UHGV virus genome: UHGV-0042229 | DNA: 64,000 nucleotides | Strand: one strand, 5' to 3' | From: a virus | Shown: positions 8,402 to 38,104 of the stretch, piece after piece | Layout: every line of letters starts with the position of its first letter | How positions within the stretch are numbered: position 1 is the stretch's first letter | The notes under the pieces: generated by a model | Database searches by the model: none | Seen by the model: the letters and a program-made list of their open reading frames with translations, nothing else | What the model was told of the DNA's origin: nothing | Translations under genes and position numbers: made by a program

Positions 8402-8403
8402 AG

Positions 8404-8430
8404 AAATCCCGCCAGTCGGCGGGATTTTTA
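8404..8430. terminator. intrinsic terminator hairpin between convergent operons
   Basis: AAATCCCGCC-AGTC-GGCGGGATTT followed by TTT; 10-bp perfect stem immediately after the operon stop. Confidence 0.5.
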
Positions 8431-8432
8431 CC

Positions 8433-10308: not shown

Positions 10309-10322
10309 AGTCTTTTCTCTGC

Positions 10323-10505
10323 TTAAAAACTGATGTATTGCGCCTTCAGGTGGGTCAGGAATGTTTTCCCACCAGCGAAAGCAATATCTCGGGGTGTTCT
10401 GTTCGTTAAAAACGCGTTCCATTGCCAACTTTGGCGTTTTTTAGCGAGTTCGTGCTTTTGTTGGCGTTTGGACCACCGCTTTTCTTTCAGTCGTTTTTTA
10501 CTCAT
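10323..10505 (-). CDS. small basic protein
   Basis: 60-aa Lys/Arg-rich ORF immediately downstream of ssb. Confidence 0.3.
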   Translation of the reverse strand: MSKKRLKEKRWSKRQQKHELAKKRQSWQWNAFLTNRTPRDIAFAGGKTFLTHLKAQYISF

Positions 10506-10510
10506 AAACT

Positions 10511-17800: not shown

Positions 17801-20800
17801 CTTTATGACTTCGTTGCCGCCGGACGCGTAGCCAGCGCAATGGACTCCGACTCCCACCGCAAAGAGGCCGCGCGTCGCCGGGTATTGTCGGAGTATTCAG
17901 ATACCGGCACCGAAAAAGCAGAGAAGTATCCGTACTTTGAGGATATGGGCTTCGATAGTGTGATCGCTGACGAAGGTCACAACTACCGCAATAGCTATAA
18001 AAATGGTCGCGAAGCGTCACAACTGGCCTATCTGCCCACCAGCGCGGTGGCGCAATCGGCGCGAGATATGGCAATTAAAAACGCGTACCTGATGAAAAAG
18101 AATGGTGGGCGCGGGCCGGTTCTCCTGACTGCAACGCCAGTCGTTAACACCCCGATCGATGCATACAACATGCTTTCTCATGTTCTGCCGAAGGAATACT
18201 GGCAGAACATGGGGATCTACGGTCCTGATGACTTCGTTAAATTCTTCGGCAAGACCAGGCTGGAAACGGTACAGAAAATTAGCGGTGAAGTTGAAGAAAA
18301 AATGGCGCTGGTGGGCTTTGAAAACCTTGATGCGCTGCGCGGTATATTCCATCGCTGGGTAACGCTTAAAACGGCGGAAGACGTTAAGGATACCGTGGAG
18401 ATCCCGGAGCTGGACGAACACCAGCAGGATGCACCACTTACTGAAGAACAACTGGCGGCGTATGAAGAATTGCGTCAGCAGGCGGAAGCGGCGGCCAAAG
18501 CCAACAATGGCGTAACGACCTCGGTCAATGAAGACGGCGTGATTGAGCACGAGAAAGCCCGTCCGATCTTCTCAATAATCAGGGATATGGACCGCGTATG
18601 TACTGACATGGACCTGTACTATCGCCGGATCACCTATCGTTTCCTGCCGGAGTACGCCGATGCGGTGCAGCAGCTGGCGGACAGTTTGCCTAAACAAGCC
18701 ACCAGCGAAGACGACGACAGTGATGATTCAATCACGCAGCAATCGCAATACTCCCTGATAGATAAGGGCGAGTTTATTCAGTTGCAGGTTCCGGAAGCGT
18801 TCGAGCAGGAAGTGAATAAGCGCCTGGCCAGGTTTGGCATTGACGAACAGACCGTAACTCACCCCGTTACGCCCAAATACGCGAAGCTGATTGCCACGCT
18901 GAAGGAGTTTTTCCCGGAAGGGAAGCAAATCATCTTCACCGACGAAAAAACGCAGCACCAGAAGCTCAAGCGCATTATCTGCAATGTTCTTAACCTTGAA
19001 CCTTCAAAGGTAGGGATCCTGAATGCTCAGACGGTTGCCGAGGCAGGTAAAACCGGTAAGAAACTGAAAGCGGTTAAACCGCCGAAAGAGTTACCGGATG
19101 AACCAACAGATGCACAGATAGCGAAATACAACGAGCAAATGGCTCTGTATGACGCCTATATCGCGCAGCAAAATGAAATGTCGTTGGGCGGTCTGGAAAA
19201 GATTGCAGCCGACTTCCAGGAGGGCCGGACTCCGATCATCATCTGCAACAAAAAGGCAGAGGTGGGTATCAACCTGCATCGAGGAACGACTGACATCCAT
19301 CATCTGACGTTGCCATGGACTCCAGCCAGTATTGCGCAACGAAACGGTCGCGGTGCCCGAGTTGGCTCCAACCGTGCAAGCGTTCGCGTTCACTACTACT
19401 GCGGCAAGGGTTCTTTCGATGAATACCGACTGAAGACGCTGAAGCGTAAAGCAGGCTGGATCTCCGATATCCTCCGTTCAGATAAGTCAGAAATGGAGAA
19501 CGCCGACGCCAACGATATGATCGAAATGCAGATGTATACCGCTAAGGATGATGGCGAACGTCTGGCAATGATGCAGGTTCAAATGGATAAGGCGAAAGCT
19601 GCGAAACGCGCTCGCCAGAAAGAACAGGCTACTATCGACCTTCAGAACTACATCAAGGCGCAGCACGCAGCTGGTGAGGATGTGGAGGTACTTACCGCTG
19701 AATTGGAGCGAAGCAAAGCGGAACTTGAAAAGACCACCGCCGACGTCGCCAAATTCAAACAGGCGGTAATGGCCAAAGCAGCTGATAACGCAGACTGGAA
19801 GGCCCGCTGGGGGAGCGTCCATCACACAGACCGTATGTTGTTAGCACAGTATCGCGCGTCGTTGAAAAACGCCATTCAGCGCAAGGCTAATATCTCTCAA
19901 GCCATCTCCCGCTATGAGAAATTATTGAACCGTACTCAGAAGGCCGCGACGGATATCAAACGCCTGCGCCCGCTGGTGGAGGATGCAATAAATAAAGGCA
20001 TTCTGGATGTTGATCCTGACCTGGTTAACCATGCGAGTGAGTTCCTTGTTATCGGCGATCGCTCATGGCGTGTAGGCCAATACTACGATTGTGCCGGTGA
20101 TATCGTTCGCATTAAGTCGCTGGACTTCGACAGCCAGCGCGCAGACGTGGAGATCATCTTTACCTTCAAAGGCACCAAATCGGGTAACTGGGATGTGAAG
20201 ACGCTGGATAAACAGGTGGATGTAACTCCCGATGAAGATGCTGTTATGCAGAAAATCAGTGGTGGCGTCTCCATCGCCGGGATTAACGACATCATTTCCT
20301 GTGACGATTTCTACCGTTTCCAGCAGCGCGGCATGATCAAAATAACTGACTCGTACGGCGTTCAGACTACAGAGTCAGGCTATAGCATTGATTTTGTTGG
20401 TACCTATACGGACCCACTGAAGCATGCGGTTTACCCGGATCGCCGTGACGGCGCGCTGAAGTCGTCAATTGCAAAATGGGTGCTTGGTATGATGTCGGAA
20501 GGGAATAACCGCCAGATCCGTTCGGCAGAAACATTCCTGGTTGAATTGTTTGGCTCCAATTATGGCGATGTAATCGCGTCATACGGAGATACGCTATCCC
20601 CTGAAGCAATTCAGGAGAAAATAGCGGATGCGATCGCCAGAATGCCGGAAAAAACAAGCCAGGGGGCTACTCGTAACGGGGATTCTGAACTTGAAGTCAC
20701 CAATGCCATTTTCGGTACCAATGAGTTCCGGGCGTCAGATTATGAGATCACCACAGCACAGTTTGGCACCATTGGCATTTACAGCAATAAAGCCGAGATC

Positions 20801-21583
20801 AAGCAGGCAATGGACGCAGCAAGCGCGCGCATCGCAGCAGAACGGGAAGCCAATCTGAATCATGCAGTCGCCGCGCTGACTCAATCGTGGGTAACAGCAA
20901 TCAGGGAGGCCGCCACCACAGGGAAAATCACACCTGCAATAGCGGATGTCGTAAACGACGGCTCTAAATTTATGGATGCCTATCAAATGGATGCGGTGAA
21001 GTTGCCATCAGCCTATGGTCAACTCAGCTATCGCATGACCTACAACCTGGTATCAATGTTTTCCGACCTTGCCATCCTTGGGCTGGTGGATCTTAACGAG
21101 GTTACGCCGGAATTGCTCAGCATGCGCAAGAATCATGTGGAGATATTGCAGAGAATTAACACGGTTCTTGCCGGGCGCACCGATGAAGAGAAACAGGCCG
21201 ACGCTGATCGGATAAACCTAGCCCTTGGCAACATCACGGAGGAAGAGATTGCCGCCAGAAACGAGAAACAAGAAGAGTTATCATCAATACAGGGTGATGC
21301 CACCAGCATAGCTCAGTCTCTTGGTCTGAATTATCGCGTATCCACCGCCGACCTGAAGATGATGTACGCACCAAAATTCGCCGCTGGCGAGGTATTTGGG
21401 CTTCAGGAAGCCTCAGGCATGAAAGGCGTTCTTTTCCGTGCGAAAGACGCAATCAAGGCGAAATTCGGCGCTCGCTGGCTGCCAGCGAAGGCGAAGAACA
21501 GCGATTTCCCGGGTAACTGGTGGATTATCGAGACAAAACACAACGTGGCGGACGTTCTGGCCGTCATCCAACAATACGCATAA
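14816..21583 (+). CDS. darB: DarB antirestriction protein (N6-adenine methyltransferase domain fused to SF2 helicase)
   Basis: 2255 aa; MTase-like motifs EPSAGTGVF and GNVPFGG; helicase motifs GFGTGLGKTT and VIADEGHNY; length equals P1 DarB. Confidence 0.8.
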   Translation: MNKLSMGVFRCSSVSEILKYIRAITSHRAPIKYGVEKVEGKSYDRLRREANQKAIDLLNSLVDGATLTDEQRQILAGYTGEGGIGGSVSEYYTPKPIAEGVWEIMKLYGADVGNTLEPSAGTGVFNETKPVGTVMTATEISSVSGRINQLLHPEDSVQISPFEQLAVSTPNDSFDHVVGNVPFGGRDNTRNIDKPYAEETDMGSYFMLRMLDKIKPGGFMCVIVPPSIVSGSNMKRLRLRLSRKAEFLGAHRLPTGTFDANGTSTVVDVVLMRKHPAEMAEKIPLVDESTLESANVLWPTFISGKWFEKDGRRFVHGTQEKGFQGRIEVRADGQIDNQALKAKLIHRFESRIDWSLLDMAEPSPTADVVGEGEMRLINGVWQKYAGGRWIEADAGKELKIDAASYGADSWEALQRNLTTTEGRLGMTFTQMANVRDKYTTSISDDMVQLVDWINSQPEKYRERLYRGAMIGRMLIEYQDMKAAGHSAEQIEQQRLSLVSRLQAEIDRFGNPGRGPIAKLSGSGARAWFAFRGAIKLDGTISDELTGKLVTHDSSASYDSTSYQDTLRYLYSDLTRDPIQLDDFRLAFTGELPASDEELLNLLASTPGIAVSPYGGIVPFARATSGDINEIVAPKQEFLATLPDGPVKNNVLNQLAAIEEKRIKTPAENIRFKLNSRWFDRSVILEFLQENGYPDLRYVQSVQLEGDEMVSDTYHGGDGLFVGHRYGVVQRKDKETGEIRYEWDRKSGENATGFPAQLEKYLNGARIGGKDSATANGYREQMALLEDQFNKWIKTHDRYDELVAKYNDVFNSNIPYEHSGDPLGLKGLSGKRQPFDYQNSEVRRLSEDGRGILGFGTGLGKTTTALALEAFNYENGRSTRTAYVVPKSVLENWYYEAKEFLSEEAFSNYLFVGLDVLMDGDQIRQVQVLDENGKPVLGTDGTPVMRDALKLADEATITARMNAIPHSNYRAVVFTKEQYARIPLRDDTVDEHAQDMLYDFVAAGRVASAMDSDSHRKEAARRRVLSEYSDTGTEKAEKYPYFEDMGFDSVIADEGHNYRNSYKNGREASQLAYLPTSAVAQSARDMAIKNAYLMKKNGGRGPVLLTATPVVNTPIDAYNMLSHVLPKEYWQNMGIYGPDDFVKFFGKTRLETVQKISGEVEEKMALVGFENLDALRGIFHRWVTLKTAEDVKDTVEIPELDEHQQDAPLTEEQLAAYEELRQQAEAAAKANNGVTTSVNEDGVIEHEKARPIFSIIRDMDRVCTDMDLYYRRITYRFLPEYADAVQQLADSLPKQATSEDDDSDDSITQQSQYSLIDKGEFIQLQVPEAFEQEVNKRLARFGIDEQTVTHPVTPKYAKLIATLKEFFPEGKQIIFTDEKTQHQKLKRIICNVLNLEPSKVGILNAQTVAEAGKTGKKLKAVKPPKELPDEPTDAQIAKYNEQMALYDAYIAQQNEMSLGGLEKIAADFQEGRTPIIICNKKAEVGINLHRGTTDIHHLTLPWTPASIAQRNGRGARVGSNRASVRVHYYCGKGSFDEYRLKTLKRKAGWISDILRSDKSEMENADANDMIEMQMYTAKDDGERLAMMQVQMDKAKAAKRARQKEQATIDLQNYIKAQHAAGEDVEVLTAELERSKAELEKTTADVAKFKQAVMAKAADNADWKARWGSVHHTDRMLLAQYRASLKNAIQRKANISQAISRYEKLLNRTQKAATDIKRLRPLVEDAINKGILDVDPDLVNHASEFLVIGDRSWRVGQYYDCAGDIVRIKSLDFDSQRADVEIIFTFKGTKSGNWDVKTLDKQVDVTPDEDAVMQKISGGVSIAGINDIISCDDFYRFQQRGMIKITDSYGVQTTESGYSIDFVGTYTDPLKHAVYPDRRDGALKSSIAKWVLGMMSEGNNRQIRSAETFLVELFGSNYGDVIASYGDTLSPEAIQEKIADAIARMPEKTSQGATRNGDSELEVTNAIFGTNEFRASDYEITTAQFGTIGIYSNKAEIKQAMDAASARIAAEREANLNHAVAALTQSWVTAIREAATTGKITPAIADVVNDGSKFMDAYQMDAVKLPSAYGQLSYRMTYNLVSMFSDLAILGLVDLNEVTPELLSMRKNHVEILQRINTVLAGRTDEEKQADADRINLALGNITEEEIAARNEKQEELSSIQGDATSIAQSLGLNYRVSTADLKMMYAPKFAAGEVFGLQEASGMKGVLFRAKDAIKAKFGARWLPAKAKNSDFPGNWWIIETKHNVADVLAVIQQYA

Positions 21584-22057: not shown

Positions 22058-22302
22058 AAAAGCGATACTACACAGTAAAGCATGGGACGCTACGAGCATT
22101 ACAAGAGTTTGCTGATAAGCATAACGTTGAGGTGCGCAGGGAAGGGGGAAGTAAAGCTCTGCGCATGTACCGTCCGGACGGGAAATGGCGTACGGTCGTC
22201 GATTTCAAAACTAACAGTGTTCCCCAGGGCGTCCGCGACCGGGCATTCGAAGAATGGGAGCAGATCATCATAGATAATGCATTGCTTCTCAATGCTGATT
22301 GA
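22054..22302 (+). CDS. hypothetical small protein (Lxc-like position)
   Basis: 82-aa ORF overlapping the upstream stop by 4 nt. Confidence 0.4.
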   Translation: MKKRYYTVKHGTLRALQEFADKHNVEVRREGGSKALRMYRPDGKWRTVVDFKTNSVPQGVRDRAFEEWEQIIIDNALLLNAD

Positions 22303-22310
22303 GTTTTGTT

Positions 22311-22335
22311 GGCCCGGTTTGCACCGGGCGTTTCA
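22311..22335 (+). terminator. possible terminator hairpin
   Basis: GCCCGGT-TTGC-ACCGGGC followed by GTTTCAC, between convergent genes. Confidence 0.3.
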
Positions 22336-22384
22336 CAAACAATCAACTGGTTTGTAGTTCCTGCGGCGAGATGAATTATTAATA

Positions 22385-22993
22385 TTATCGTGGTGCCGAT
22401 GATGCGATAGCCTGTATGATGTTATCAATATCGTTATCGTTCAGCATGAATATAGGTACACCATTAGAGTTTGCATTTTTTTCAGTGCTCATCAAACAAA
22501 GCCCCTCATACATGCCGCGAGTTTTTTTGAAATTGGCGACTGATGGAGTGGTGTAATTTCCTTTAAAGTGCATTCCGGCTGATTCATAAAAAGGAACCAA
22601 ATCAGACTGGCAAATCAAAGCGACCTCATTTGGAAATGCAAGTATTTCTGCCAGTATATTACTTCCAAGTCCATTACCACGATATTGCTCATATACATAT
22701 ATTTTATGACAGTACAACGGAAAATTTCCCGATGGATGTCCGAAGATTAAGGCGTATCCGAACAAGTTTTCTTCATTAGTAAAGCCCATAATGCGCAAAT
22801 GACCGGCTCGGTAACACTCTTCAAAAACGTTAATTATGTAGCTTCTCGCTGCTTTCAGCTCCTCTTCTGTCGGGAACATCATCAACCCCATAAGCGATGG
22901 AGTATAGACCAGATCCTGAAGAATCCCATTAGCTTCATTTTCGAAAATTAGCGGTAAGTGCGGTACAATTTCATTTGCCGAGGTATTAGACAT
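22385..22993 (-). CDS. GNAT-family N-acetyltransferase
   Basis: Acetyl-CoA-binding motif YEQYRGNGLGSNIL; gene and flanks are conspicuously AT-rich. Confidence 0.7.
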   Translation of the reverse strand: MSNTSANEIVPHLPLIFENEANGILQDLVYTPSLMGLMMFPTEEELKAARSYIINVFEECYRAGHLRIMGFTNEENLFGYALIFGHPSGNFPLYCHKIYVYEQYRGNGLGSNILAEILAFPNEVALICQSDLVPFYESAGMHFKGNYTTPSVANFKKTRGMYEGLCLMSTEKNANSNGVPIFMLNDNDIDNIIQAIASSAPR

Positions 22994-23192
22994 AGTATGG
23001 TGAGTCCTTTGTTTTCAAAGGACTCATGTTATCAGTGATAATCGTTTGTTGTAATAGTGTTGATAAAATAATTTTCTATTATGTAAGCAAGCTCATTTTT
23101 ATGACGGGTAATGCAAAAAAAAATAGAATCAAAAAACTAAAAAATAATAATTCATGGGGTTTTACACCATCAAAAGTCCCCACTATAAATTA

Positions 23193-23834
23193 TTAGAAAT
23201 AATTATGCTTGCCTGTTAATACCCCTTTCGGCACTTTTTTTTGTTCCAGTGTCTGGGTACCCAGAATTATGTTAATAAGTGGACTTAGTAACGATGGTTC
23301 CTGGCGGGCTTCAACTTCTCCAGCCATTGCCCTGATGTAGTCGGCGCTGGCAACGTTGTTGTATTCCGTCGCAAAGCAACATAGTAACGTCAGAACATGC
23401 TCTGTCGTTATTTCGCTCCAGTTGATGTTGAAAAATTCATCGCCTTTTTTATCGTGTTCGGAATCGAAGATGCTTTGGTGGAGGATGTATTTGCCGGATT
23501 CCTTGCGCGGTAACTTGATCGCTTTCTGGCGTTCCAGCTCCTTGTAAATCTGCATTGCTTCAATCAGTACCGGCCTGCCGTTCATGAAGGGATCGCGCAA
23601 CCTTACACGCTGGCCAACTCGACCAGTAATAAAGCTGTTTTCCTCTTCCACCAGCACGATAAAACCCTTTTCCTCTTTTTCTCGCAATTCGCGCAGCAGC
23701 TGGAGTTCCATATCGCGGCGGCGTTCAGGGTAGCTGGTCCGCTCAGCCATTATCAGCTCGTTATTGATCCATGCAGCAGTCATTGACGCCGGTTTGCCGA
23801 CGCTCATCGAAACAACGCATATTTTCTTATCCAT
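23193..23834 (-). CDS. hypothetical protein (P1 mat position)
   Basis: ORF downstream of ref; start set at MDKKICVV... after an AGGGGG RBS (ORF track extends to 23981). Confidence 0.45.
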   Translation of the reverse strand: MDKKICVVSMSVGKPASMTAAWINNELIMAERTSYPERRRDMELQLLRELREKEEKGFIVLVEEENSFITGRVGQRVRLRDPFMNGRPVLIEAMQIYKELERQKAIKLPRKESGKYILHQSIFDSEHDKKGDEFFNINWSEITTEHVLTLLCCFATEYNNVASADYIRAMAGEVEARQEPSLLSPLINIILGTQTLEQKKVPKGVLTGKHNYF

Positions 23835-25192: not shown

Positions 25193-26224
25193 CTAATCAC
25201 CATCTTCCAGCAGGCGCACCATTGCCCCCGTTTCACTATCCAGATTACGGATATAGTTCATGACAATATTTACGTTGGTCCAGCCACCAGCTTGCATGAT
25301 CTCCGGTATTGAAACTCCGGCGCGGGCCATATCTCGCGCGGCTCCGACACGGGCACTGTGTCCAGACCAGGCCAGGTACCTCTGACCAGAGTCATCCTTA
25401 GCCCCGTAAATCAATCGGTGAGTTGCTTCAAAAATCCCTTCCAGGGCGCGAGTTGATAGCTGGCTGGTGGATGATGGCGAGGCAACACCATTTTTTCTGA
25501 CCCGGCAAAACAAGTAGTTATTCGGATCATCAGCCACACCAGAGACAGAAATCCATCGCTCGACCAGTTTAGTTACCCCCAGGCTAAGTGCCTTCTCTAC
25601 ACCTGCGGTGCTAACCAGCGTTTTCGTTCTGCCAATATGGATTAACATTCTCCCACCGTCAGTACGTGAGATATCTTTAACCCTGATCCTGGCAATTTCG
25701 GCTATACGTAACAGGGTGTTATAAGCAATCCCCAGAAATGCCAGATTACGTATATCCTGGCAGCGATCGCTATTTTCCATGAGTGAACGAACCTGGTCGA
25801 AATCAGTGCGTTCGAACGCTAGTGCCTGTTTTGCACGTTCACCGGCATCAACGTTTTCTTTTCGGATCCGCCGCATGACCAGTGAAACAGCATTGCTGTC
25901 ACTTGGTCGTGGCAGCCCGGACCGACGATGAAGCATGTTTAGCTGGCCCAAATGTTGCTGGATAGTTTTTACTGCCAGACCGCGCGCCTGAAGATATAGA
26001 AGATAATCGCGAACATCTTCAGGTTCTGCGGGAAACCATTTCCGGTTATTCAATTTGCACCATGCCGCCCATGACCGGCAAACGGACAGAAGCATTTTCC
26101 AGGTATGCTCAGAAAACGCCTGGCGATCCCTGAACATATCCATCAGGTTCTTGCGAACCTCATCACTCGTTGCATCGACCGGCAATGCAGGCAAATTTTG
26201 GTGTACGGTCAGTAAATTGGACAT
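25193..26224 (-). CDS. cre: Cre tyrosine site-specific recombinase
   Basis: 343-aa translation MSNLLTVHQNLPALPVDATSDEVRKNLMDMF...MVRLLEDGD is the P1 Cre sequence as recalled, barring a few conservative differences. Confidence 0.97.
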   Translation of the reverse strand: MSNLLTVHQNLPALPVDATSDEVRKNLMDMFRDRQAFSEHTWKMLLSVCRSWAAWCKLNNRKWFPAEPEDVRDYLLYLQARGLAVKTIQQHLGQLNMLHRRSGLPRPSDSNAVSLVMRRIRKENVDAGERAKQALAFERTDFDQVRSLMENSDRCQDIRNLAFLGIAYNTLLRIAEIARIRVKDISRTDGGRMLIHIGRTKTLVSTAGVEKALSLGVTKLVERWISVSGVADDPNNYLFCRVRKNGVASPSSTSQLSTRALEGIFEATHRLIYGAKDDSGQRYLAWSGHSARVGAARDMARAGVSIPEIMQAGGWTNVNIVMNYIRNLDSETGAMVRLLEDGD

Positions 26225-27377: not shown

Positions 27378-28229
27378 ATGATAAATTATGTCTACGGCGA
27401 ACAACTGTACCAGGAGTTCGTCAGCTTCAGGGATCTCTTTCTAAAAAAAGCTGTTGCACGCGCCCAACACGTTGATACAGCCAGCGACGGTCGTCCTGTA
27501 CGCCCGGTTGTCGTTCTACCGTTCAAAGAAACTGACAGCATTCAGGCTGAAATTGATAAATGGACTTTAATGGCGCGGGAACTGGAACAGTACCCAGACC
27601 TCAATATCCCAAAGACTATTTTATATCCAGTGCCTAACATCCTTCGCGGTGTGCGTAAGGTTACAACTTATCAGACAGAGGCTGTGAACAGCGTCAACAT
27701 GACCGCTGGCCGCATTATTCATCTGATTGATAAGGACATTCGCATCCAAAAAAGCGCGGGGATCAATGAGCACAGTGCGAAATACATAGAGAACCTGGAA
27801 GCAACAAAAGAGCTAATGAAGCAGTACCCGGAGGATGAAAAATTCCGTATGCGCGTACACGGCTTTAGCGAAACAATGCTGCGCGTCCACTACATTTCCA
27901 GTAGCCCTAACTACAATGATGGTAAATCAGTTAGTTACCATGTGCCACTGTGTGGCGTGTTTATCTGCGATGAAACTCTCCGTGATGGAATTATCATCAA
28001 CGGTGAATTCGAAAAAGCAAAATTTAGCCTTTATGACTCTATAGATCCGATCATCTGCGACCGCTGGCCGCAGGCAAAAATATATCGCCTGGCAGATATT
28101 GAAAATGTAAAAAAACAAATTGCCATCACTCGCGAAGAGAAAAAGGTCAAATCAGCCGCATCAGTTACGCGCAGCCGTAAAACCAAGAAGGGGCAGCCAG
28201 TAAACGACAACCCCGAAAGCGCGCAATAA
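27378..28229 (+). CDS. c1: C1 primary immunity repressor
   Basis: 283-aa MINYVYGEQLYQEFVSFRDLFLKKAVARAQ...; GGAGGAGG RBS; target motif repeated across the window. Confidence 0.9.
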   Translation: MINYVYGEQLYQEFVSFRDLFLKKAVARAQHVDTASDGRPVRPVVVLPFKETDSIQAEIDKWTLMARELEQYPDLNIPKTILYPVPNILRGVRKVTTYQTEAVNSVNMTAGRIIHLIDKDIRIQKSAGINEHSAKYIENLEATKELMKQYPEDEKFRMRVHGFSETMLRVHYISSSPNYNDGKSVSYHVPLCGVFICDETLRDGIIINGEFEKAKFSLYDSIDPIICDRWPQAKIYRLADIENVKKQIAITREEKKVKSAASVTRSRKTKKGQPVNDNPESAQ

Positions 28230-28233
28230 ATTA

Positions 28234-28258
28234 TGCCCGGCATCAACCGGGCATTCTT
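28234..28258 (+). terminator. terminator hairpin after c1
   Basis: TGCCCGG-CATCAA-CCGGGCA followed by TTCTTCC. Confidence 0.4.
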
Positions 28259-28261
28259 CCA

Positions 28262-29377
28262 TTATTCAGCCGCCACCGGTTTTAACAAGCCAGCATCGAG
28301 CAGTTTACGCGTCAACCACTGCTGGCCTTTACCCGTTAATTGAGGCGTCAACCGTATCTGGTAGCCATCTTCATCATCCAGCACCACTTCTTTCACCGTG
28401 AAATACCCCGCGTTGATGTACTGCTGGAACGGCACATTTTTACGTCCACCGGACGCTATCAGGATGCCGTTCTCCCGTAACCAGACAAACAGCGCGTTTT
28501 GCTTAAGTCCAACAACCTTTGCAAAATTCCCAATCAGGATCCCTTTAGCTACTGATACCCGGTCGGCAAAATCGACTTTAGGAGCGGCGGCCACCAGCTG
28601 CTGATTTAGCTGGTGGGCTTTCTGTTCCAGAAGCTGCTTTTGTTCAGCCAGTTCGGCAGCCAGGCGCAGAGCTTCTGGAAGCGTCTGGGGGATTGCAACC
28701 GGTTGCTGTTCTTTTTGCCGGAAGTAGCTGTCTTCCAGTTTTTCAAAGAATGCCCATGCCTGATCGGTTTCGAGCATTTTAGCGTGGCGGGCTGCGCCGC
28801 GTTCCGTCCAGAGGATGAGTGAGCGGGCTTTAGGAGAGATAGGATTTTGTGAGTTACTTAAAGTCACCCGCAAATTGTTCAAATCATCTCCAATAACTTT
28901 ATAGAAATGCTTACCTTCACAAAAACGTTCAGCATTACGGGAAAAGTTCTTCTTGATGTTATCCGCATCTGTCCCATACCCCTTAGCAAGGATCTTAGTT
29001 GTCACTACACGCACTCCCTGCCACTCTAGAACGGGAATTTCATCCGGCTGACTTTGAACAACCACCAGTTCTGATTCCTGAACTAAAGGTGTATTAATTT
29101 TTTCAGATTTAACGTTAGTAGCTTTCATTCTGTGTGCCTCCTTGCGTGTTTCGGCTGCGACGGTTGCGTAATTCAGATGCCCCTGTTCGAGCAGGTATTC
29201 ACGGATATCAGACAGCAGGATACGGTGAACAGCGTTCTTGTCCTTTCTCCGGTAAAGTTGTTTGGTGATCATGAAGTAGTTGGCAATAACGCCAGGTATA
29301 TCCCTGGTACTGATACAGGCAGTGTGCTGTTCAATTGCCTCGATCATCTCTTCACGGGTAACTAACGATGTTCTCAT
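28262..29377 (-). CDS. ant: antirepressor (Ant-like; Bro-N/ORF6N plus KilA-C-type domains)
   Basis: 371 aa; start codon overlaps the icd stop; domain assignment from sequence features only. Confidence 0.6.
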   Translation of the reverse strand: MRTSLVTREEMIEAIEQHTACISTRDIPGVIANYFMITKQLYRRKDKNAVHRILLSDIREYLLEQGHLNYATVAAETRKEAHRMKATNVKSEKINTPLVQESELVVVQSQPDEIPVLEWQGVRVVTTKILAKGYGTDADNIKKNFSRNAERFCEGKHFYKVIGDDLNNLRVTLSNSQNPISPKARSLILWTERGAARHAKMLETDQAWAFFEKLEDSYFRQKEQQPVAIPQTLPEALRLAAELAEQKQLLEQKAHQLNQQLVAAAPKVDFADRVSVAKGILIGNFAKVVGLKQNALFVWLRENGILIASGGRKNVPFQQYINAGYFTVKEVVLDDEDGYQIRLTPQLTGKGQQWLTRKLLDAGLLKPVAAE

Positions 29378-29595
29378 AGTCCCTCCTGAGCAGAAGCGTT
29401 AACAGGGAGGCACCAGTAACTGAGAGAATTGCGTGAATCAGTGGAAAAACGGGCAGAGAAAATACATGGGGCGTCAGGAAGCTGAGAGCGGGCCTCATCT
29501 TCTGTCGGTGCAATAACGAAGTGATAGTGACGTTTTTGGCAGGAGTAAAAGCGCCAGATAAATTCAGGATGAGTTGGGGTAGGGATAGTAGCCAT
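29374..29595 (-). CDS. icd: Icd-like cell-division inhibitor (Ash family)
   Basis: 73 aa MATIPTPTHPEFIWRFYSCQKRHYHFVIAPTEDEARSQL... after an AAGGAGG RBS. Confidence 0.55.
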   Translation of the reverse strand: MATIPTPTHPEFIWRFYSCQKRHYHFVIAPTEDEARSQLPDAPCIFSARFSTDSRNSLSYWCLPVNASAQEGL

Positions 29596-29914
29596 ATTGG
29601 CAGCCTCCTTAGACGTTGGTATGTAACCACCGCAGAAGAGACCAATCTTGCTGGCGGTGGACTGTACGGAGTTGGCCTTACTGGCGTCCAAGGTAACCAG
29701 CCTACCCGAAGGTAGCCCCATACAGCCCACCATTGTAGAGGTGTGCGTGTACGCCGATACAAAAAAAAGACGCGAGCGGCGTCTGTATCGCCTTAGACTT
29801 AAGCGGGAGGCCAATCCCGGCACCCGTTTTAATGAGGTGCCTGATAAGCATAAACCGAAAATGCCTCAAGGCGCAAGAGGTCAGGTTCAATGTAACATCG
29901 GCAGTCAAAAAACA

Positions 29915-29931
29915 CAATTTATTAGAGCAAG
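29915..29931 (-). promoter_or_regulatory. C1 operator (2 mismatches) at head of the icd-ant leader
   Basis: CAATTTATTAGAGCAAG, about 320 bp upstream of icd. Confidence 0.6.
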
Positions 29932-29934
29932 ATT

Positions 29935-31419
29935 TTACTCATTAAGCCATGCCAGAGCTTCATCAACCTGCGCTTCGTCTTCGACGCTAAGCACTTCATC
30001 CTGGGGAACATAATCCGCCAGCATAGCGAAACAATATGTATCCCAATGGTCTGGTGAGTGCAGGTTGAGTTTTTTCTTCATATCCTCCTTACTCATCACC
30101 TTCCATTGACCTGCGGAGTTAATCCCTACAGGGATTTTCGACGCTTCCTCAATAGTTTCATTACCCTTATCCAGTCTCATACGACCAGATTTTACGGCCT
30201 CTGCGGCTTGAACGTTGGCATAAGCACGTTTATCAAAGTACAGGCTCTTATCTTCACGGCTATGCATCTTTTTACCCCAGCGTATACGCTGTACGGTAAT
30301 ACCATAATACTCGTACATCAGATCCGCCGTTGCTTTACCCAGGCCATCGCCGTCTATCGCTATGGTGATATTTGGGAATCGCTCAGGATTACATTCTGCG
30401 AAAATTTTGGCGGCAAGCTGCGTTTCTGTAACGTCTGTGTATTCCAGCATTCGATAGTTGATTACACGGCGTTTATTTCGCTGGCCGGACACCATCATGA
30501 TATTGATAACGGACTTATCCCGTCCCGTACCACCAGCAACGTCCACACATGCAAGCCAGCCCCATCCTTTTGCAATCTTGACTTTCCGCCGCGTTGCACG
30601 TTCAACCTCATCACGTCCAAGAAGGAAGCCATCCTGTGATTTAGGGAATAGGCCGCGTACCTTAATCATGTACATAGGGTTATCGCGCCCGCCGTACTCC
30701 GCCAGCTTCATTTTGATAAATGCTGGCGTTACCAGCGGTGATTCCTCACTGTTAAGCGTGATCGCCGTATAAACGCCATCAGGGTTACCAGGACGCTTGG
30801 CCAGTTTATGGTGTGTATCGTAGAAATAGCCGCTTGGGCGTGTAGGCTGTGACAGCAATAAGATGCGGTTATCCTGTCCGGTAAGAGCACCGGTGATGAT
30901 ACCGAAAGCTCTATCACTGACACCGGAGGCTTCATCGATAATATACAGAAGATGATCTGCGTGTTCACCGGCGAGAGCTTCTTCACTTCCCAGACGAAAG
31001 CCCTTCGGTACTACAGTCCATACACCTTTACCAGTAACCTCATAGAAAGCGGTTTCTGTCAGAACAAAATAATCAGCAAGCCATGGAAAACGGCTGGTGG
31101 CAGTAGCCCAGTTTATCTTGATGTACTTGAATATACCGGTCATTACCTGCTGAATTTTGTTCGCAACGATAATGGCTCGGGCACCGGGATACATGATTAT
31201 GAACAACATGATCATGATAGAAGTCATGTCTGATTTCCCGGTACCGTGGCCAGACGAAACAGATGTCTTGCTACCCTGTTCCTGCACAGACTCAATAATC
31301 AGATCCTGCTGCCAGGTAGGTGTTTTGCCGAACAAAACATCAGCGGCCGCAATCCAGTCATAACGATATAGCGCCACCAGCTCGCGCCAACGTGGATCCG
31401 TTACGCAACTTCTGGCCAT
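29935..31419 (-). CDS. pacB: PacB terminase large subunit
   Basis: 494 aa with Walker [11 protein letters not shown] and Walker [10 protein letters not shown]; coupled to pacA. Confidence 0.85.
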
Positions 31420-32612
31420 TAATCATCATCCCCGTATAGCTTGCGGGTAACTTCTTCGTCTTCCTCCTCGTCTTCGTCCAGGTCTTGTTCCAGCCATGGT
31501 TCGTTTGATACACCTTCAGTATCAACATCTCCATAACCGCCTGTATCAACGATATCGGCGATTTCTTCCCTACGCTGCTCAATCCACAATGCGGCATCGG
31601 CGCGGCGGTTGGCGGCCCGTTCTCGCGCAACTTTGTCCAGATCTTCAAGAGAAGGGCCACCGACGGCTGTTTGCCTTTCCTCATCATCGGTATTGGTCTT
31701 CGGAGCACGCAGATCGGCTTTGATTTGCTCCAGCATCAGGGGCGGCACTTTCCCGCCATGCGCCTCGATGAATTCAGCTGCTTCCAGCACTGACCAGTTA
31801 TTTTCACGCTTTCGTTCGTATGCCAGCTTAACAATGCCAGCTTGCCCCATAGACAAAGCGTGCTTTTCCGCCTCCCGGCTTTCTTTTCGATAGTTATTCC
31901 GGATGCTGTAAATGGTGTTGATCAGGCTGCTTATCTGCGCGGAACAGCTGTTTAGCATGCTCGCGATACGATATTCAGGCGGAGTCCCTTCATCATCGTC
32001 TTTTTGCTGATCGCGCATTTCCTGCACCAGACGAATACACGTATCCCTGGCATTCTCCAGCATAAGGAGATGAGAAAGAGACTTTTCCAGAAGAGTGGTT
32101 TCCAGAACATCGGCCCCGGACCGACGCAACATAGCGCGCGCGGCCTTCCGCGCTTCAACGTTATCTATCAGGTAATCGCCAGCTTCGAATTCAAAGCGTT
32201 CACCATCATCATCCAGGGTGTCGCGTTCCAGGCGATCACGTAAGGTCCGGTGGGCGCGGGTGATCACGTCATGATCATCAGAACGATCATTTATGCGCTT
32301 ATTTTGGCGCTTCGCATTCTCGACTGCGGCACTGACAACGGCATTAACCCTTTGTTTTTCCGCTATTTCAGCCGCAATGTGATCACCTGCATGTTGATCA
32401 TTAGAGTGATCAATGATCATGCTTTTTAGTGGCTTCCTGACTGGCTTATTTGGCTTGCGGCTGTCCGCTGTCCTGGTGTCTTCTTTGAAGGCACGGAGAT
32501 AACGACGTGCAGTATTAGGGTTAAGATTAAACTCGGCGGCATACTGTGCGATGGTGTAACCACCATCTCGCGCCAGGCGAGCAAAATTCTTCTTGTGATC
32601 GTCCCAGGTCAC
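31419..32612 (-). CDS. pacA: PacA terminase small subunit / pac recognition
   Basis: 397 aa with N-terminal HTH-like region and acidic C-terminus; contains the pac site. Confidence 0.85.
32231..32420. other. pac packaging site with two clusters of GATC-containing hexamers
   Basis: TGATCA/CGATCA hexamers at 32234, 32261, 32272, 32284 and at 32380, 32395, 32407, 32414, about 90 bp apart, inside the 5' part of pacA. Confidence 0.75.
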
Positions 32613-33238: not shown

Positions 33239-34282
33239 TTACCTAACACTCGACGAGTGACTTGTGATAGCGCCGACTCCAAGCGCGTAATCAAAGAACA
33301 ATCGTTGATGCATCGCCAGCCTACCGTGCGTCTTCTCCCAATTATCGCGGTCACGCTCAATATCACGCTGGCATGACTGGCACAGAGGAATTGCGTAAAT
33401 GTCATGCGCGCATAATCGACTATGACGAACGATATAAGGCGTAATGTGAGCGCCAGCTCCCGCCGCTCCACACCCACAGCATGGACGGGAAGCAACAAAG
33501 TCCATGTACTCAGGTAATTTTAGCGATTGCAGTTTTGGTATTTTGAAATGCGCCATGCCAGGGTCGGAGTCAACATCCACAGGGCATACTTTTGCACGCA
33601 TCGGCGCGGCGCGTTCTTCCATCATCTGGACATATGCTGTAGCGCGATCGTCATACGGGCGAATATCCGCCTCTTTCAGAGGTCCGCTATCCTGCGTTGC
33701 GGCTTTCATCTTATTTATTGATATACGGTAAACTTCTTCCGGCATCAGGTGCATCATGTTGCGCATGAAAGCCCACCAGCACAGTTCCTGAATACTTAAA
33801 TCATGGCCATCTGAAAGCCCCATTTCCTGACGGGCGACATCCAGTATCCAGTTAACGCGATTATTATGCAGCGTTTCTTTCAGCTCATTAAAACCACGCA
33901 TCCGGTAATGGTTATCGTGATGCCAGCACAACAACACCGCGCTCTTGTCTCGTTCAGCGTGGACAATATGGTTGTCACACCAACTACGATCTGCGGCCTG
34001 GCATTGCCCCTCTTTCCTGCGCAACCACGCCACCAGCGCGTCAATTCCACCAATACGGCGAAACAGTTCATCGCTGTTAAAAAACGGCTGCAACGCCTCA
34101 TTTGTTGCCATAGTTTGCTCGGAAAAAACGAGGCCGTCGTCCATGTGCTCGATTAACTCACGCGGCACCGGCTCCATAATAAATTTACGGCCAGCCTCCA
34201 CCAGCTTTCTGACTTCCTGATCCACTTTGAATGTGGCGACGCCAAGCTCTTTTTGTACAAAGGGAGTAATTACGGCTTTCAC
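33239..34282 (-). CDS. PdcB-like protein (downstream of phd-doc)
   Basis: 347-aa Cys-rich ORF; position as P1 pdcB. Confidence 0.45.
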
Positions 34283-34309
34283 ATCACACCTTTCATCACT
34301 GATTGGGCT

Positions 34310-34510
34310 TTATCTGCTGCCCGGCATTCTCTGTTTAAGCACAACCATTTCCTGACGGCATAACACAGCAATAGCGGTCCTGGCACCAATTTGCTTACCA
34401 ACCAGGTATTGCTTTACCTCGCTGCGACTCACGCCATCAAGAAGCATCTTTAACGCTTCACGGGACAATTTGTTGTATTTGCGTGCCATTAATCTACTCC
34501 GCAGAACCAT
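34310..34510 (-). CDS. small protein downstream of doc (PdcA-like position)
   Basis: 66-aa ORF overlapping the doc stop. Confidence 0.3.
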
Positions 34511-36833: not shown

Positions 36834-38104
36834 GCGAGTTGAGTTATCTGGAAAAATTGCTGGATGGGGTTGAGGTTGAGTGGAAATCTTTGGGTGAAAT
36901 TGCCACTAAAATTTACTCAGGGGGAACCCCGGATACAAAAAGAAAAGAGTATTGGGAGAATGGAACTATTCCCTGGATGAGTTCTGGCGAAGTGAACTTA
37001 AAAAATATTGAAAGGACAGAGAAATATATTACTGAGGCTGGATTAAATAACTCTAGTGCCAAATTAGTACCGAGAAACTCTGTAGTCATAGCCTTGGCTG
37101 GTCAGGGAAAAACTCGAGGTAAAGTAGCAAGAATCCGTATCGCATTAGCTACTAATCAATCACTTGCAGCACTTACATTTGATGAAAAGAAATTCAGTTC
37201 CGATTACGTATTCCATTTTTTAGAGACTCAGTATGAGAGTTTGCGTCAAATATCATCTGGAAACAGCGGACGCGGCGGACTAAATCTGCAAATGATTTCA
37301 GCATACAAAATCCCAATTCCCTGCCCGGATAATCCGGAAAAATCCCTTGCCATCCAGTCTGAAATCGTTCGGATTCTGGACAAATTCAGCGAGCTTACAG
37401 CAGAGCTTACAGCAGAGCTTAACATGCGTAAAAAACAGTACAACTACTATCGCGACCAGTTGTTGCGTTTTAAAGAGGGTGAGGTTGAGTGGAAGACTTT
37501 GGGGGAAATTGGAGATTTTACATATGGATATGCAGCCAAAGCCATGGATTCAGGAGATGCCCGTTTCGTGAGAATTACTGACATAAATAAAGACGGGAAG
37601 CTATCGAAAGAAAACCCAATGTACGTTGAATTAAATGAGGAAAATGAGAAATATACCTTAGACAAAAATGATTTACTCATGGCAAGAACTGGGGCAACCT
37701 TTGGTAAAACAATGATTTTTGAAGAAGATTATCCAGCAGTATACGCTGGTTTTTTAATAAAGTTGAACCTAAATAAAACGATTATTAATGCCAAATATTA
37801 CTGGCACTTTGCACAAAGTGATTTTTTTTGGGAACAGGCTAATAAATTAGTATCTGGTGGTGGGCAACCACAGTTTAATGCTAATGCACTGAAACAAGTC
37901 AGAGTACCTATTCCATACCCATCTCACCCTCAAAAATCTTTAGACGAACAGGGGCGTATTGTGGATATTCTGGATAAGTTTGATGCAATCGCAGCTTCCA
38001 TCACCGAAGGTCTCCCGCGTGAAATCGAGTTGCGCCAGAAACAATACGAGTACTATCGTGATTTACTGTTCAGTTTCCCGAAACCTGAAACTGTCAGTAA
38101 TTAA
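36830..38104 (+). CDS. hsdS: type IC specificity subunit HsdS
   Basis: Conserved N-terminus [24 protein letters not shown], central repeat TAELTAEL, C-terminal conserved region [27 protein letters not shown], two variable TRDs. Confidence 0.85.

What the first reader, a model, noticed from the sequence alone, without database searches (positions are those of the whole stretch)
28262..29931. icd-ant antirepressor module with a long leader placed between c1 and pacB
An Icd-like 73-aa ORF is translationally coupled to a 371-aa Ant-like gene, preceded by a roughly 320-nt untranslated leader that starts at a C1 operator. This is the architecture of the P1 immI region (c4 antisense RNA, icd, ant), which I recall lying at a distant map position in P1. 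The leader probably encodes a c4-type antisense RNA, but I could not delimit it by eye.
Basis: partly seen in the sequence, partly recalled or inferred. Interest (0 to 1): 0.5.

Follow-up and report, generated by a model that had tools for sequence, protein, structure and literature searches.

The report
Second antisense-controlled antirepressor module in P1-like phage
This P1-like phage-plasmid carries, between its terminase and repressor genes, a complete extra copy of the P1 "immI" switch (small antisense RNA, cell-division inhibitor, antirepressor) whose antisense RNA recognises different sequences from the usual copy; the insertion is real and widespread, and was already noted in the literature.

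Summary
On the minus strand, right after the pacB stop (29935), lie:
- a C1-operator match (29931-29915);
- an IsrK-type leader RNA with its terminator (29840-29763, Rfam 60.8 bits);
- a C4 antisense RNA (29737-29650, 75.9 bits);
- icd (29595-29374, 73 aa);
- ant (29377-28262, 371 aa), overlapping icd by ATGA, with a nested Ant2-type start;
- a terminator facing c1.

P1, P7 and SJ46 have only 24 bp between pacB and c1, and their immI lies about 44 kb away. So this is not the ordinary immI position. It is an extra module: pD72-mcr1, RCS47, JL22 and 673R5 keep the canonical immI as well.

The C4 recognition sequences here (a' GGCCAA, b' CCUUGGAC) match a1/b1 in the IsrK-like RNA and a2/b2 over the icd Shine-Dalgarno. 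They differ from the P1, P7 and co-resident canonical types. These sites covary across at least 26 specificity types in related loci.

The module is common: 271 PLSDB plasmids and 264 of 5426 complete E. coli genomes. The gene insertion was noted by Venturini et al. 2019.

Verdict: a real, ordinary-to-moderately interesting member of a known system. I found no description of its RNA layer.

The parts
29915..29931 (-). C1 operator-like site CTTGCTCTAATAAATTG. It has the same orientation and relative position as Oc4 (Op51) of P1, and starts 4 nt after the pacB stop codon (29937-29935).
   Evidence: 2 mismatches to the consensus; 15 sites in the window against 0.3 expected; alignment with P1 Oc4. 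C1 binding was not tested.
29889..29917 (-). Inferred C1-controlled promoter, the P51a/P2c4 analogue: -35 TTGTGT (29917-29912), 17-nt spacer, -10 TACATT (29894-29889). The -35 overlaps the 3' end of the operator.
   Evidence: Inference from hand alignment with the annotated P2c4 of P1. It is below the threshold of the consensus scan.
29847..29876 (-). Inferred promoter of the IsrK-like RNA, the P51b/P1c4 analogue: -35 TTGCGC (29876-29871), 18-nt spacer, -10 TATGCT (29852-29847). The -10 ends 6 nt before the RNA 5' end at 29840.
   Evidence: Inference. D6 has TTGCGC-N18-TATATT and Ss-VASD has TTGACT-N17-TATATT at the same register. The segment is 98-100% conserved in RCS47, JL22 and 673R5. It was not found by the consensus scan.
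29763..29840 (-). IsrK-type leader RNA, made of two 5' hairpins and an intrinsic terminator. It carries a1 (UUGGCC, 29814-29809, in the loop of hairpin 2) and b1 (GUCUAAGG, 29798-29791). The terminator stem-loop is at 29784-29768, followed by a U-run to 29761.
   Evidence: Rfam isrK RF01394, 60.8 bits against a gathering score of 50. The c4-a1b1 model aligns to the same two hairpins at 20.5 bits, below threshold; terminator; a1/b1 covary with a'/b'.
29650..29737 (-). C4 antisense RNA gene. By alignment to the annotated 77-nt P1 c4, the mature RNA is predicted at about 29731-29653 (79 nt). b' is CCUUGGAC(G) at 29693-29685, in the loop of the second hairpin. a' is GGCCAA at 29677-29672.
   Evidence: RF01695, 75.9 bits against a gathering score of 45, all pairs canonical; comparison with P1 c4.
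29604..29645 (-). Target region in the icd 5' UTR. a2 is UUGGUC (29645-29640; pairs with a', one G-U). b2 is CGUCUAAGG (29615-29607; pairs with b', one G-U). b2 overlaps the Shine-Dalgarno AAGGAGG (29610-29604).
   Evidence: Read directly from the sequence. Same layout as a2/b2 annotated in P1. Covariation.
29374..29595 (-). icd, 73 aa; its stop overlaps the ant start (ATGA).
   Evidence: 80% identity to P1 Icd. PGAP names it an Icd-like protein in pD72-mcr1.
28262..29377 (-). ant, 371 aa (Ant1-type), with a nested in-frame Ant2-type start at ATG 29128 preceded by AAGGAGG. The offset is 249 nt, as in P1. The N-terminal 84 aa and the C-terminal KilAC domain are P1-like. The central ORF6N domain (aa 116-201) is not found in P1 Ant.
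   Evidence: PF03374 at 1e-31 and PF10543 at 9e-19; 55% overall identity to P1 Ant1, with the centre unalignable; ant1/ant2 coordinates in P1; sequence.
28233..28254 (-). Terminator-like hairpin ATGCCCGG-TTGA-TGCCGGGCAT between the ant stop and the convergent c1 stop (c1 = 27378-28229, + strand).
   Evidence: junction comparison.

Best explanation
This is a complete second immI-type immunity operon, wired into the C1 regulon of a P1-like phage-plasmid. It sits in the gap between pacB and c1.

Shown by sequence:
- a C1 operator overlapping a P51a-like promoter;
- a leader that yields an IsrK-type RNA carrying decoy sites a1/b1 and ending at an intrinsic terminator;
- a C4 antisense RNA on readthrough transcripts;
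- target sites a2/b2, with b2 covering the icd ribosome-binding site;
- icd translationally coupled to nested ant1/ant2.

Inferred, by analogy with P1/P7 immI and with Gifsy-1 IsrK:
1. In the lysogen, C1 shuts the operator-linked promoter, and a weaker constitutive promoter keeps C4 supplied.
2. C4 pairs with a2/b2 and blocks icd translation, and therefore the coupled ant translation.
3. The a1/b1 sites, in cis or as the short terminated RNA in trans, compete for C4 and set the threshold.
4. When the phage enters a cell that lacks a matching C4, Icd and Ant are made, and Ant inactivates the C1 repressor.

The a'/b' sequences (GGCCAA, CCUUGGAC) differ from those of P1, P7 and the canonical immI of the closest relative. 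The two modules should therefore be blind to each other's C4. The phage would then hold two independent keys against resident immunity, and the lysogen two independent locks against superinfection.

The module is a mosaic: a P1-type operator/promoter, icd and Ant ends; a D6/lambdoid-type IsrK-C4 cassette; and a lambdoid-type ORF6N centre in Ant.
For: RNA genes: C4 scores 75.9 bits and isrK 60.8 bits, both full-length.

Operator. Terminators.

Protein genes: Icd is 80% identical to P1 Icd. Ant has a KilAC domain and P1-like N- and C-termini. The ATGA overlap and the +249 nested start are as in P1.

Pairing sites: a1, a2, b1 and b2 are all complementary to a'/b' in the window. The predicted fold of the whole leader pairs a1/b1 with a'/b' in cis (z = -3.4).

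Three-way covariation of a'/a1/a2 and b'/b1/b2:
- in RCS47, JL22, D6, Ss-VASD, P1, P7 and pD72;
- in 25 further distinct a'/b' types from IMG/VR, with own a sites at least 7 nt in every type and own b sites 8-12 nt in nearly all.

Orthogonality: cognate C4/target duplexes are the most stable in every row of a crude cross-table.

Position: it is an extra module, not a moved one. pD72-mcr1 (about 98% identical to the window) has canonical c4-a1b1 + C4 + icd + ant + kilA + repL as well as this module. RCS47, JL22 and 673R5 also keep the canonical leader. P1, P7 and SJ46 have a 24-bp spacer instead.

Maintenance: intact in 271 PLSDB records and in 264 of 5426 complete E. coli genomes.

Divergence pattern: the IsrK-C4-UTR segment is the most divergent part between variants (70-88%) inside 94-100% identical flanks. 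This is the pattern of a specificity cassette.

Experimental analogue: in Gifsy-1, IsrK in trans activates translation of the downstream antirepressor more than 100-fold. The compensatory mutations G28A/C162U and G31A/C159U fall, by my position mapping, on the a1/a' pairing (PMC4825925). Gifsy-1 does have a C4 RNA directly after isrK.
Against: - No expression, processing or binding data exist for this module. Both promoters are weak by consensus and were not picked up by the scan.
- Whether this Ant acts on the phage's own C1 is unknown, and its central domain differs from P1 Ant.
- The window does not reach the canonical immI position. Co-residence is shown only in relatives, the closest being 97.8% identical over 25 kb.
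- The duplex-energy table is crude. It ignores intramolecular structure, and some non-cognate values come within 1-5 kcal/mol of cognate ones, for example RCS47 C4 on the window target, -25.6 against -26.7.
- a'/a2 and b'/b1,b2 in the window type each contain one G-U pair.
Confidence: 0.8

Rival explanations
1. The module is regulated as described, but its Ant is aimed at the repressor of other elements (lambdoid or D6-like prophages), not at the phage's own C1. It would be a cross-induction or competition weapon, or a sensor of co-resident prophages.
For: - The IsrK-C4 cassette is 81% identical to Stx and Shigella lambdoid phages, and that of variant JL22 carries the same a'/b' recognition loops as D6.
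- The central ORF6N domain is absent from P1 Ant and matches Roi/Ant genes of Stx phages at about 71% DNA identity.
- In Gifsy-1 the homologous module drives prophage induction (PMC4825925).
Against: - The N-terminal 84 aa (about 65% identical) and the C-terminal 136 aa (more than 90%) are P1-Ant-like, and the Ant1/Ant2 nested arrangement is kept.
- A C1 operator heads the operon and is conserved in all P1-like variants.
- The window's a'/b' type was seen only at the pacB/c1 locus of P1-like elements in the IMG/VR sample.
Confidence: 0.12
2. It is the only immI of this particular genome, that is, a relocated rather than an additional module.
For: - The window ends before the canonical immI position, so its presence cannot be seen directly.
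- Some P1-like plasmids have lost or altered canonical immI, for example pJIE250-3 and pSvP1 (PMC6906374).
Against: All four relatives with the module that I examined keep the canonical c4-icd-ant: pD72-mcr1, RCS47, JL22 and 673R5.
Confidence: 0.05
3. It is a silent or decaying passenger left by recombination, with no current function.
For: The promoters are weak by consensus. One related record (673R5) has indels in the leader and broken neighbouring genes, probably sequencing errors.
Against: - Both ORFs are intact, and all six pairing sites match one another.
- The sites covary across variants.
- Hundreds of independent records keep the full module.
Confidence: 0.03

Closest known systems
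immI operon of phages P1 and P7 (Oc4/Op51, P51a/b, a1-b1, c4 RNA, a2-b2, icd, ant1/ant2)
   Same: - Same order of elements, with nearly the same spacing: 336 nt against 330 nt from operator to icd.
- The operator is in the same orientation and overlaps the -35.
- The C4 RNA belongs to the same Rfam family.
- b2 lies over the icd Shine-Dalgarno.
- Icd is 73 aa and 80% identical.
- Same ATGA coupling, and the nested ant2 start is at the same +249 nt.
- The KilAC C-terminus is more than 90% identical.
   Different: - Map position: between pacB and c1 instead of between sim and kilA-repL.
- The a1/b1 element is of the IsrK type with its own terminator; the c4-a1b1 model scores only 20.5 bits against a gathering score of 46.7.
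- The a'/b' recognition sequences are different.
- The central part of Ant is replaced by an ORF6N domain, making it 24 aa longer.
- It is present in addition to the canonical immI in relatives.
isrK-'orf45'-anrP locus of Salmonella prophage Gifsy-1 (Hershko-Shalev et al. 2016, PMC4825925)
   Same: - An IsrK RNA (Rfam RF01394) with a terminator, directly followed by a C4 RNA and then an antirepressor gene.
- a1/a' pairing is supported there by compensatory mutations, by my position mapping.
- The short RNA activates downstream translation in trans.
   Different: - Gifsy-1 has no icd. The paper treats the C4 region as a 45-codon ORF and a processed RNA, STnc1160.
- There is no C1 operator.
- The antirepressor AnrP is unrelated in architecture to Ant1/Ant2.
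- It is a lambdoid, integrated prophage.
IsrK-C4-icd-ant module of phage-plasmid D6 (MF356679, orf83/orf82) and the homologous leaders of Stx/Shigella lambdoid phages (e.g. Ss-VASD, P13374)
   Same: Same IsrK-type leader plus C4 plus icd (D6). The JL22 variant of the pacB/c1 module has a'/b' identical to D6.
   Different: - D6 and the lambdoid phages have no C1 operator or P51a-like promoter upstream.
- Their genomic contexts differ.
- D6 Ant is a Rha/Roi/KilA-like protein of a different length.
The same insertion in sequenced P1-like elements (RCS47 FO818745, pTZ20_1P MN510447, JL22, vB_EcoM-673R5, pD72-mcr1)
   Same: Same locus and same gene content. RCS47 annotates 'ant' there. Venturini et al. 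2019 state that an antirepressor gene and two short ORFs are inserted between pacB and c1 'as in RCS47'.
   Different: - Those records and papers annotate only proteins.
- The C4 region is annotated as hypothetical ORFs or as an 'ash family' pseudogene.
- I found no statement about a second C4 RNA, its specificity, or the IsrK-type a1/b1.

Membership tests
P1/P7-type immI operon | C4 antisense RNA encoded in the leader of the icd-ant transcript | tested here: met
   RF01695, 75.9 bits against a gathering score of 45, full-length, at 29737-29650.
P1/P7-type immI operon | C4 loops a'/b' complementary to a2/b2 in the icd 5' UTR, with b2 over the ribosome-binding site | tested here: met
   a' GGCCAA pairs with a2 UUGGUC. 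b' CCUUGGACG pairs with b2 CGUCUAAGG, which overlaps AAGGAGG. The sites covary in other types.
P1/P7-type immI operon | Second pair of target sites (a1/b1) upstream of c4 | tested here: met
   a1 UUGGCC and b1 GUCUAAGG lie in the IsrK-like RNA. They are predicted to pair with a'/b' in cis.
P1/P7-type immI operon | C1-controlled operator overlapping a promoter at the head of the operon | tested here: inconclusive
   There is a 15/17 match to the consensus at the position and orientation of Oc4. The promoter is only inferred, and C1 binding is not testable here.
P1/P7-type immI operon | icd (73 aa) translationally coupled to ant; ant1 and ant2 from nested in-frame starts | tested here: met
   ATGA overlap. 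Icd is 80% identical to P1 Icd. There is an internal ATG with AAGGAGG at +249 nt, as in P1.
P1/P7-type immI operon | Ant homologous to P1 Ant1/Ant2 throughout | tested here: not met
   The ends are homologous (KilAC domain, N-terminal 84 aa). The central roughly 130 aa are replaced by an ORF6N domain.
P1/P7-type immI operon | Map position between sim and kilA-repL | tested here: not met
   It lies between pacB and c1.
P1/P7-type immI operon | C4 released from the precursor by RNase P; Ant1/Ant2 bind and inactivate C1 | not testable with these tools
   Needs biochemistry.
IsrK RNA (Rfam RF01394) | Covariance-model score at or above the gathering score; two 5' hairpins plus an intrinsic terminator | tested here: met
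   60.8 bits against a gathering score of 50, model positions 1-77 of 77. Terminator.
IsrK RNA (Rfam RF01394) | Lies upstream of a C4-type RNA and an antirepressor gene, as in Gifsy-1 | tested here: met
   Gifsy-1: isrK 34316-34240, C4 34214-34131, then anrP. The window has the same order.
IsrK RNA (Rfam RF01394) | Hfq binding; trans-activation of downstream translation | not testable with these tools
   Known only for Gifsy-1 (PMC4825925).
c4-a1b1 motif (Rfam RF03163) | Covariance-model score at or above the gathering score | tested here: not met
   20.5 bits against a gathering score of 46.7 (E = 0.006). It aligns to the same two hairpins. The canonical copies in P1 and pD72 score 51 and 56 bits.

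The most novel reading that the evidence does not exclude
P1-like phage-plasmids, including carriers of mcr-1 and ESBL genes, would have two independent antisense-RNA immunity loci. The pacB/c1 locus would be a swappable specificity cassette: at least 5 a'/b' combinations were seen there, built from independently assorting a and b types. It would decide which P1-like elements can superinfect, induce or exclude one another. The IsrK-type RNA would act as a built-in sponge for C4. On this reading, the Gifsy-1 'orf45' mechanism is a C4/anti-C4 switch of the P1 immI kind.
Probability: 0.4. Interest if true: 0.55.

Novelty: new member of a known kind. Interest (0 to 1): 0.35.

Why it matters
P1-like phage-plasmids spread resistance genes. 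The closest relative of this window, pD72-mcr1, carries mcr-1, and RCS47 and JL22 carry ESBL genes. Which of these elements can coexist with, displace or induce one another depends on their immunity systems.

A second, orthogonal C4-controlled antirepressor would double the immunity code of these elements. Its polymorphism at one fixed locus gives a simple typing marker and a testable model of heteroimmunity.

The work also links two literatures that have been treated separately. IsrK of Salmonella Gifsy-1 turns out to be the a1/b1 partner of a C4 RNA of the P1 kind.

None of this changes the basic picture of how immI works.

Tried and rejected
- The consensus promoter scan found no minus-strand promoter in the leader. 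Both promoters in the report therefore rest only on alignment with annotated P1 promoters and with D6 and Ss-VASD.
- I looked for the window's own genome in PLSDB to check its canonical immI. The best record is 97.8% identical (pD72-mcr1), so co-residence is shown only for relatives. One search failed because the query was one base too long.
- The isrK model did not report 673R5. The sequence shows 1-nt deletions in hairpin 2 and in the U-run of a record whose neighbouring genes are also fragmented. I treat these as sequencing errors, not as a variant.
- My first regular expressions parsed only about half of the IMG/VR loci. A looser one parsed 95 of 118 but missed the window type, because its a' is followed by U rather than C. 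One search fixed this.
- The cross-type control is weak. G-U pairs were allowed and the shared CCUU/AAGG bases inflate non-cognate matches (mean 5-6 nt against 7-10 nt for own sites).
- The duplex-energy table ignores intramolecular structure and only ranks partners.
- The JL22 paper (PMC9603915) and a 2025 review of phage sRNAs (PMC12197685) say nothing about this module or about a link between IsrK and C4.
- I considered that the 149-aa ORF at 29374-29823 might be a real longer Icd. I rejected it: it is the icd frame read through the C4 gene. The Shine-Dalgarno and start codon align with those of P1 icd.
Full report
**What the window is**

The window is a P1-like phage-plasmid, read in the opposite orientation to the P1 map. 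It carries cre (25193-26224, -), coi and c1 (27378-28229, +), pacB (29935-31419, -) and pacA (31419-32612, -). Over most of its length it is colinear with plasmid pD72-mcr1 (NZ_CP035313) at about 96-99% identity. No PLSDB record is closer than 97.8% over 25 kb.

**Checking the observation**

On the minus strand, downstream of the pacB stop codon (29937-29935), the sequence reads in this order:
- A C1-operator match, CTTGCTCTAATAAATTG (29931-29915). It has 2 mismatches to the consensus. The window holds 15 sites with up to 3 mismatches, against 0.3 expected by chance.
- About 75 nt of promoter region.
- An RNA that matches Rfam isrK over its full length (29840-29763, 60.8 bits, gathering score 50). 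It ends in a stem-loop and U-run terminator (29784-29761).
- A full-length C4 antisense RNA (29737-29650, 75.9 bits, gathering score 45, no non-canonical pair).
- A 54-nt untranslated stretch ending in AAGGAGG.
- icd (29595-29374, 73 aa).
- ant (29377-28262, 371 aa), which starts inside the icd stop (ATGA).
- A hairpin terminator (28254-28233) facing the end of c1.

Icd is 80% identical to P1 Icd. Ant is 55% identical to P1 Ant1 overall.

**Is this the ordinary immI position?**

No. In P1 the operator Oc4, promoters P2c4/P1c4, sites a1/b1, c4, a2/b2, icd and ant1/ant2 lie at 48140-49731, followed by kilA and repL. In P1, pacB and c1 end 24 bp apart at 93206/93231.

SJ46 is 98.8% identical to the window in both flanks and has the same 24-bp spacer. 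Homology to the window breaks exactly at the two stop codons. The 1705 bp at 28230-29934 therefore replace a 24-bp spacer.

The module is additional, not relocated:
- pD72-mcr1 has both a canonical immI (c4-a1b1 56 bits, C4 70.8 bits, then icd, ant, kilA, repL) and this module (isrK 60.8 bits, C4 75.9 bits).
- RCS47, JL22 and 673R5, which also carry the module, keep the canonical c4 leader and icd.

The window itself stops short of the canonical position, so co-residence is an inference for this genome.

**How common, and is it known?**

A query spanning the c1 end, the module and the pacB end is covered at 80% or more in 271 of 816 matching PLSDB plasmids. The module alone is covered in 264 of 5426 complete E. 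coli genomes, and most matching places lie on plasmids.

RCS47 annotates 'ant' there. Venturini et al. [quoted passage not shown] RCS47)" (PMC6906374). The gene insertion is therefore already on record.

I found no description of the RNA genes in it. Database records annotate the C4 region as hypothetical ORFs or as an 'ash family' pseudogene.

**Anatomy compared with P1 immI**

The layout matches element for element.
- The operator has the orientation of Oc4. The 30 nt after it align with P1's P2c4 (P51a), which gives a candidate -35 TTGTGT and -10 TACATT.
- A second candidate promoter (TTGCGC-N18-TATGCT) ends 6 nt before the IsrK-like 5' end. D6 and Ss-VASD have TTGCGC-N18-TATATT and TTGACT-N17-TATATT in the same register.
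- Both promoters are inferred. The consensus scan did not report them.

In C4, the loop of the second hairpin reads CCUUGGACG (b') and the following single strand reads GGCCAA (a').
- Downstream, UUGGUC (a2) lies 5 nt after the Rfam C4 match.
- CGUCUAAGG (b2) overlaps the icd Shine-Dalgarno.
- Upstream, UUGGCC (a1) is the loop of IsrK hairpin 2, and GUCUAAGG (b1) follows it.

This is the arrangement annotated for P1. ant contains an in-frame ATG with AAGGAGG 249 nt after its start, the same offset as ant2 in P1.

**What differs from P1**

1. The a1/b1 element is of the IsrK type, with its own terminator. The c4-a1b1 model, which scores 51-56 bits on canonical copies, reaches only 20.5 bits here, although it aligns to the same two hairpins.
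2. The recognition sequences differ from P1 (a' CUGUCAA, b' UCACUAAC), from P7 (CUGCUAA, UCACAAUC) and from the canonical copy of pD72-mcr1 (CUGCUAA, CGUAAGU).
3. Ant keeps a P1-like N-terminus (aa 1-84) and KilAC C-terminus (PF03374, 6e-31). Its centre is an ORF6N domain (PF10543, 9e-19) that P1 Ant lacks. At the DNA level this centre resembles Roi/Ant genes of Stx phages.
4. The IsrK-C4 cassette resembles those of Stx and Shigella lambdoid phages (81% identity) and of D6.

**Evidence that the pairing sites are functional**

In RCS47 (a' UCUCAA, b' CCUUUGAC), JL22 and D6 (UCUCAA, CCUUUUGC) and Ss-VASD (GUAGCAA, CCUUGAUUG), a1, a2, b1 and b2 change together with a' and b'.

A scan of IMG/VR for the conserved IsrK core returned 120 stretches. 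Their analysis gave the following:
- The window type occurs in 15-16 of them.
- In 25 further distinct a'/b' combinations, every a site has a 7-8-nt perfect complement both upstream and downstream, and nearly every b site has 8-12 nt.
- The a and b types assort independently.
- One locus carries an a1 that no longer matches its a'/a2.

The minimum-free-energy fold of the 251-nt leader pairs a1/b1 with a'/b' in cis. In a crude duplex-energy table the cognate C4/target pair is the most stable in every row.

**The pacB/c1 locus is polymorphic**

In the IMG/VR sample, five a'/b' combinations occur with pacB upstream and c1 downstream. The window's combination was seen only in that context.

Between the window and RCS47 or JL22, identity is 94-100% in pacB, the promoter region, icd, the Ant ends and c1. 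It falls to 70-88% across IsrK, C4 and the target UTR, and to 78-82% in the Ant centre for JL22 and 673R5. This is the pattern expected of a specificity cassette exchanged by recombination, like the P1/P7 difference at canonical immI.

**Link to IsrK of Gifsy-1**

In Gifsy-1, isrK (34316-34240) is followed by a C4 RNA above the gathering score (34214-34131, 69 bits), then the antirepressor gene anrP and isrJ. The c4-a1b1 model overlaps the 5' half of isrK at 48.1 bits.

Hershko-Shalev et al. described this stretch as 'orf45' and as the processed RNA STnc1160. They showed two things (PMC4825925):
- Short IsrK in trans raises anrP translation more than 100-fold.
- G28/C162 and G31/C159 pair.

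By position, these residues fall on a1 and a'. This is my mapping, not a statement of the paper. It supports the idea that the IsrK-type RNA competes for C4. A 2025 review still treats IsrK and c4 as unrelated.

**Most likely mechanism**

Shown:
- the parts and their complementarity;
- their covariation;
- the extra-copy status in relatives.

Inferred from P1/P7 immI (established knowledge: C4 blocks icd translation, ant depends on icd translation, Ant1/Ant2 inactivate C1, and differences in a'/b' underlie P1/P7 heteroimmunity) and from Gifsy-1:
1. C1 represses the operator-linked promoter.
2. A constitutive promoter makes mostly the short IsrK-like RNA, plus some readthrough transcript from which C4 is released.
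3. C4 closes the icd ribosome-binding site.
4. a1/b1 buffer C4.
5. In a cell without the matching C4, Icd and Ant are made and C1 is inactivated.

Two orthogonal modules would give the phage two ways past a resident's immunity and the lysogen two barriers to superinfection.

**Rivals**

- The Ant may be aimed at foreign repressors. Its centre and the RNA cassette are lambdoid/D6-like. However, its ends, the nested starts and the C1 operator are P1-like.
- In this particular genome the module could be the only immI.
- It could be silent. Its intactness, covariation and wide conservation argue against this.

**Verdict**

It is a member of a known system, found in hundreds of sequenced elements and already noted in print as a gene insertion.

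What seems undescribed:
- its RNA content;
- its distinct C4 specificity;
- the polymorphism of that specificity at a fixed locus;
- the equivalence of IsrK with the a1/b1 element.

Interest is moderate to low for novelty, and somewhat higher as a testable model of immunity among resistance-carrying phage-plasmids.

Noticed in passing
window 29620-29721 (-); pD72-mcr1 record 75425-75526: RefSeq/PGAP annotates an incomplete 'ash family protein' pseudogene here. It lies on top of the C4 RNA gene (record 75409-75496), so an RNA gene appears to be annotated as a protein fragment. JL22 and 673R5 annotate hypothetical ORFs over the same leader.
   Followed up: partly
L133 (Gifsy-1, NC_010392) 34131-34329 (-): In Gifsy-1, isrK is followed directly by a full C4 RNA (69 bits) where the literature places 'orf45'/STnc1160. 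The c4-a1b1 model (48.1 bits) overlaps the 5' half of isrK. IsrK therefore looks like the a1/b1 partner of a C4 RNA, a link I did not find stated in the papers read.
   Followed up: partly
window 28230-28245 versus L007 (SJ46) 1086-1109 and P1 93207-93230: The 24-bp c1/pacB spacer of P1 and SJ46 shares TAT-CCGGCAT with the left arm of the terminator after ant in the window. This could be a deletion scar in P1 or the recombination point of the insertion. The direction cannot be decided.
   Followed up: no
L005 (pD72-mcr1) 27699-27960: The canonical immI of the closest relative has the P7-type a' (CUGCUAA) but a b' (CGUAAGU) unlike either P1 or P7, with matching b1/b2. The canonical locus is therefore also polymorphic beyond the classical P1/P7 pair.
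   Followed up: partly
MF356679 (D6) 20795-21177 and L010 2544-2754: Phage-plasmid D6 also carries two C4-type modules: one with a canonical-type leader (90% identical to the pD72 canonical leader) and one of the IsrK type.
   Followed up: no
IMG/VR loci L011-L130: IsrK-C4 modules fall into at least 26 a'/b' combinations in which a and b types assort independently. One locus has an a1 (UUGAGA) that does not match its own a'/a2 (UUCCAA type), presumably a recent recombinant.
   Followed up: partly
L009 (Ss-VASD) 3524-3607: An sRNA-Xcc1 match (79.6 bits) lies about 0.8 kb downstream of the IsrK-C4 pair in Shigella phage Ss-VASD, just upstream of a gene annotated as antitermination.
   Followed up: no
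window 54895-54967, 56402-56474, 56480-56552 (-): Three tRNA genes, as expected for a P1-like genome.
   Followed up: no
window 8399-10509, 22300-23195, 36885-37310: These stretches have no megablast match of 400 bp or more in pD72-mcr1. They are local differences in cargo or variable regions and were not examined.
   Followed up: no
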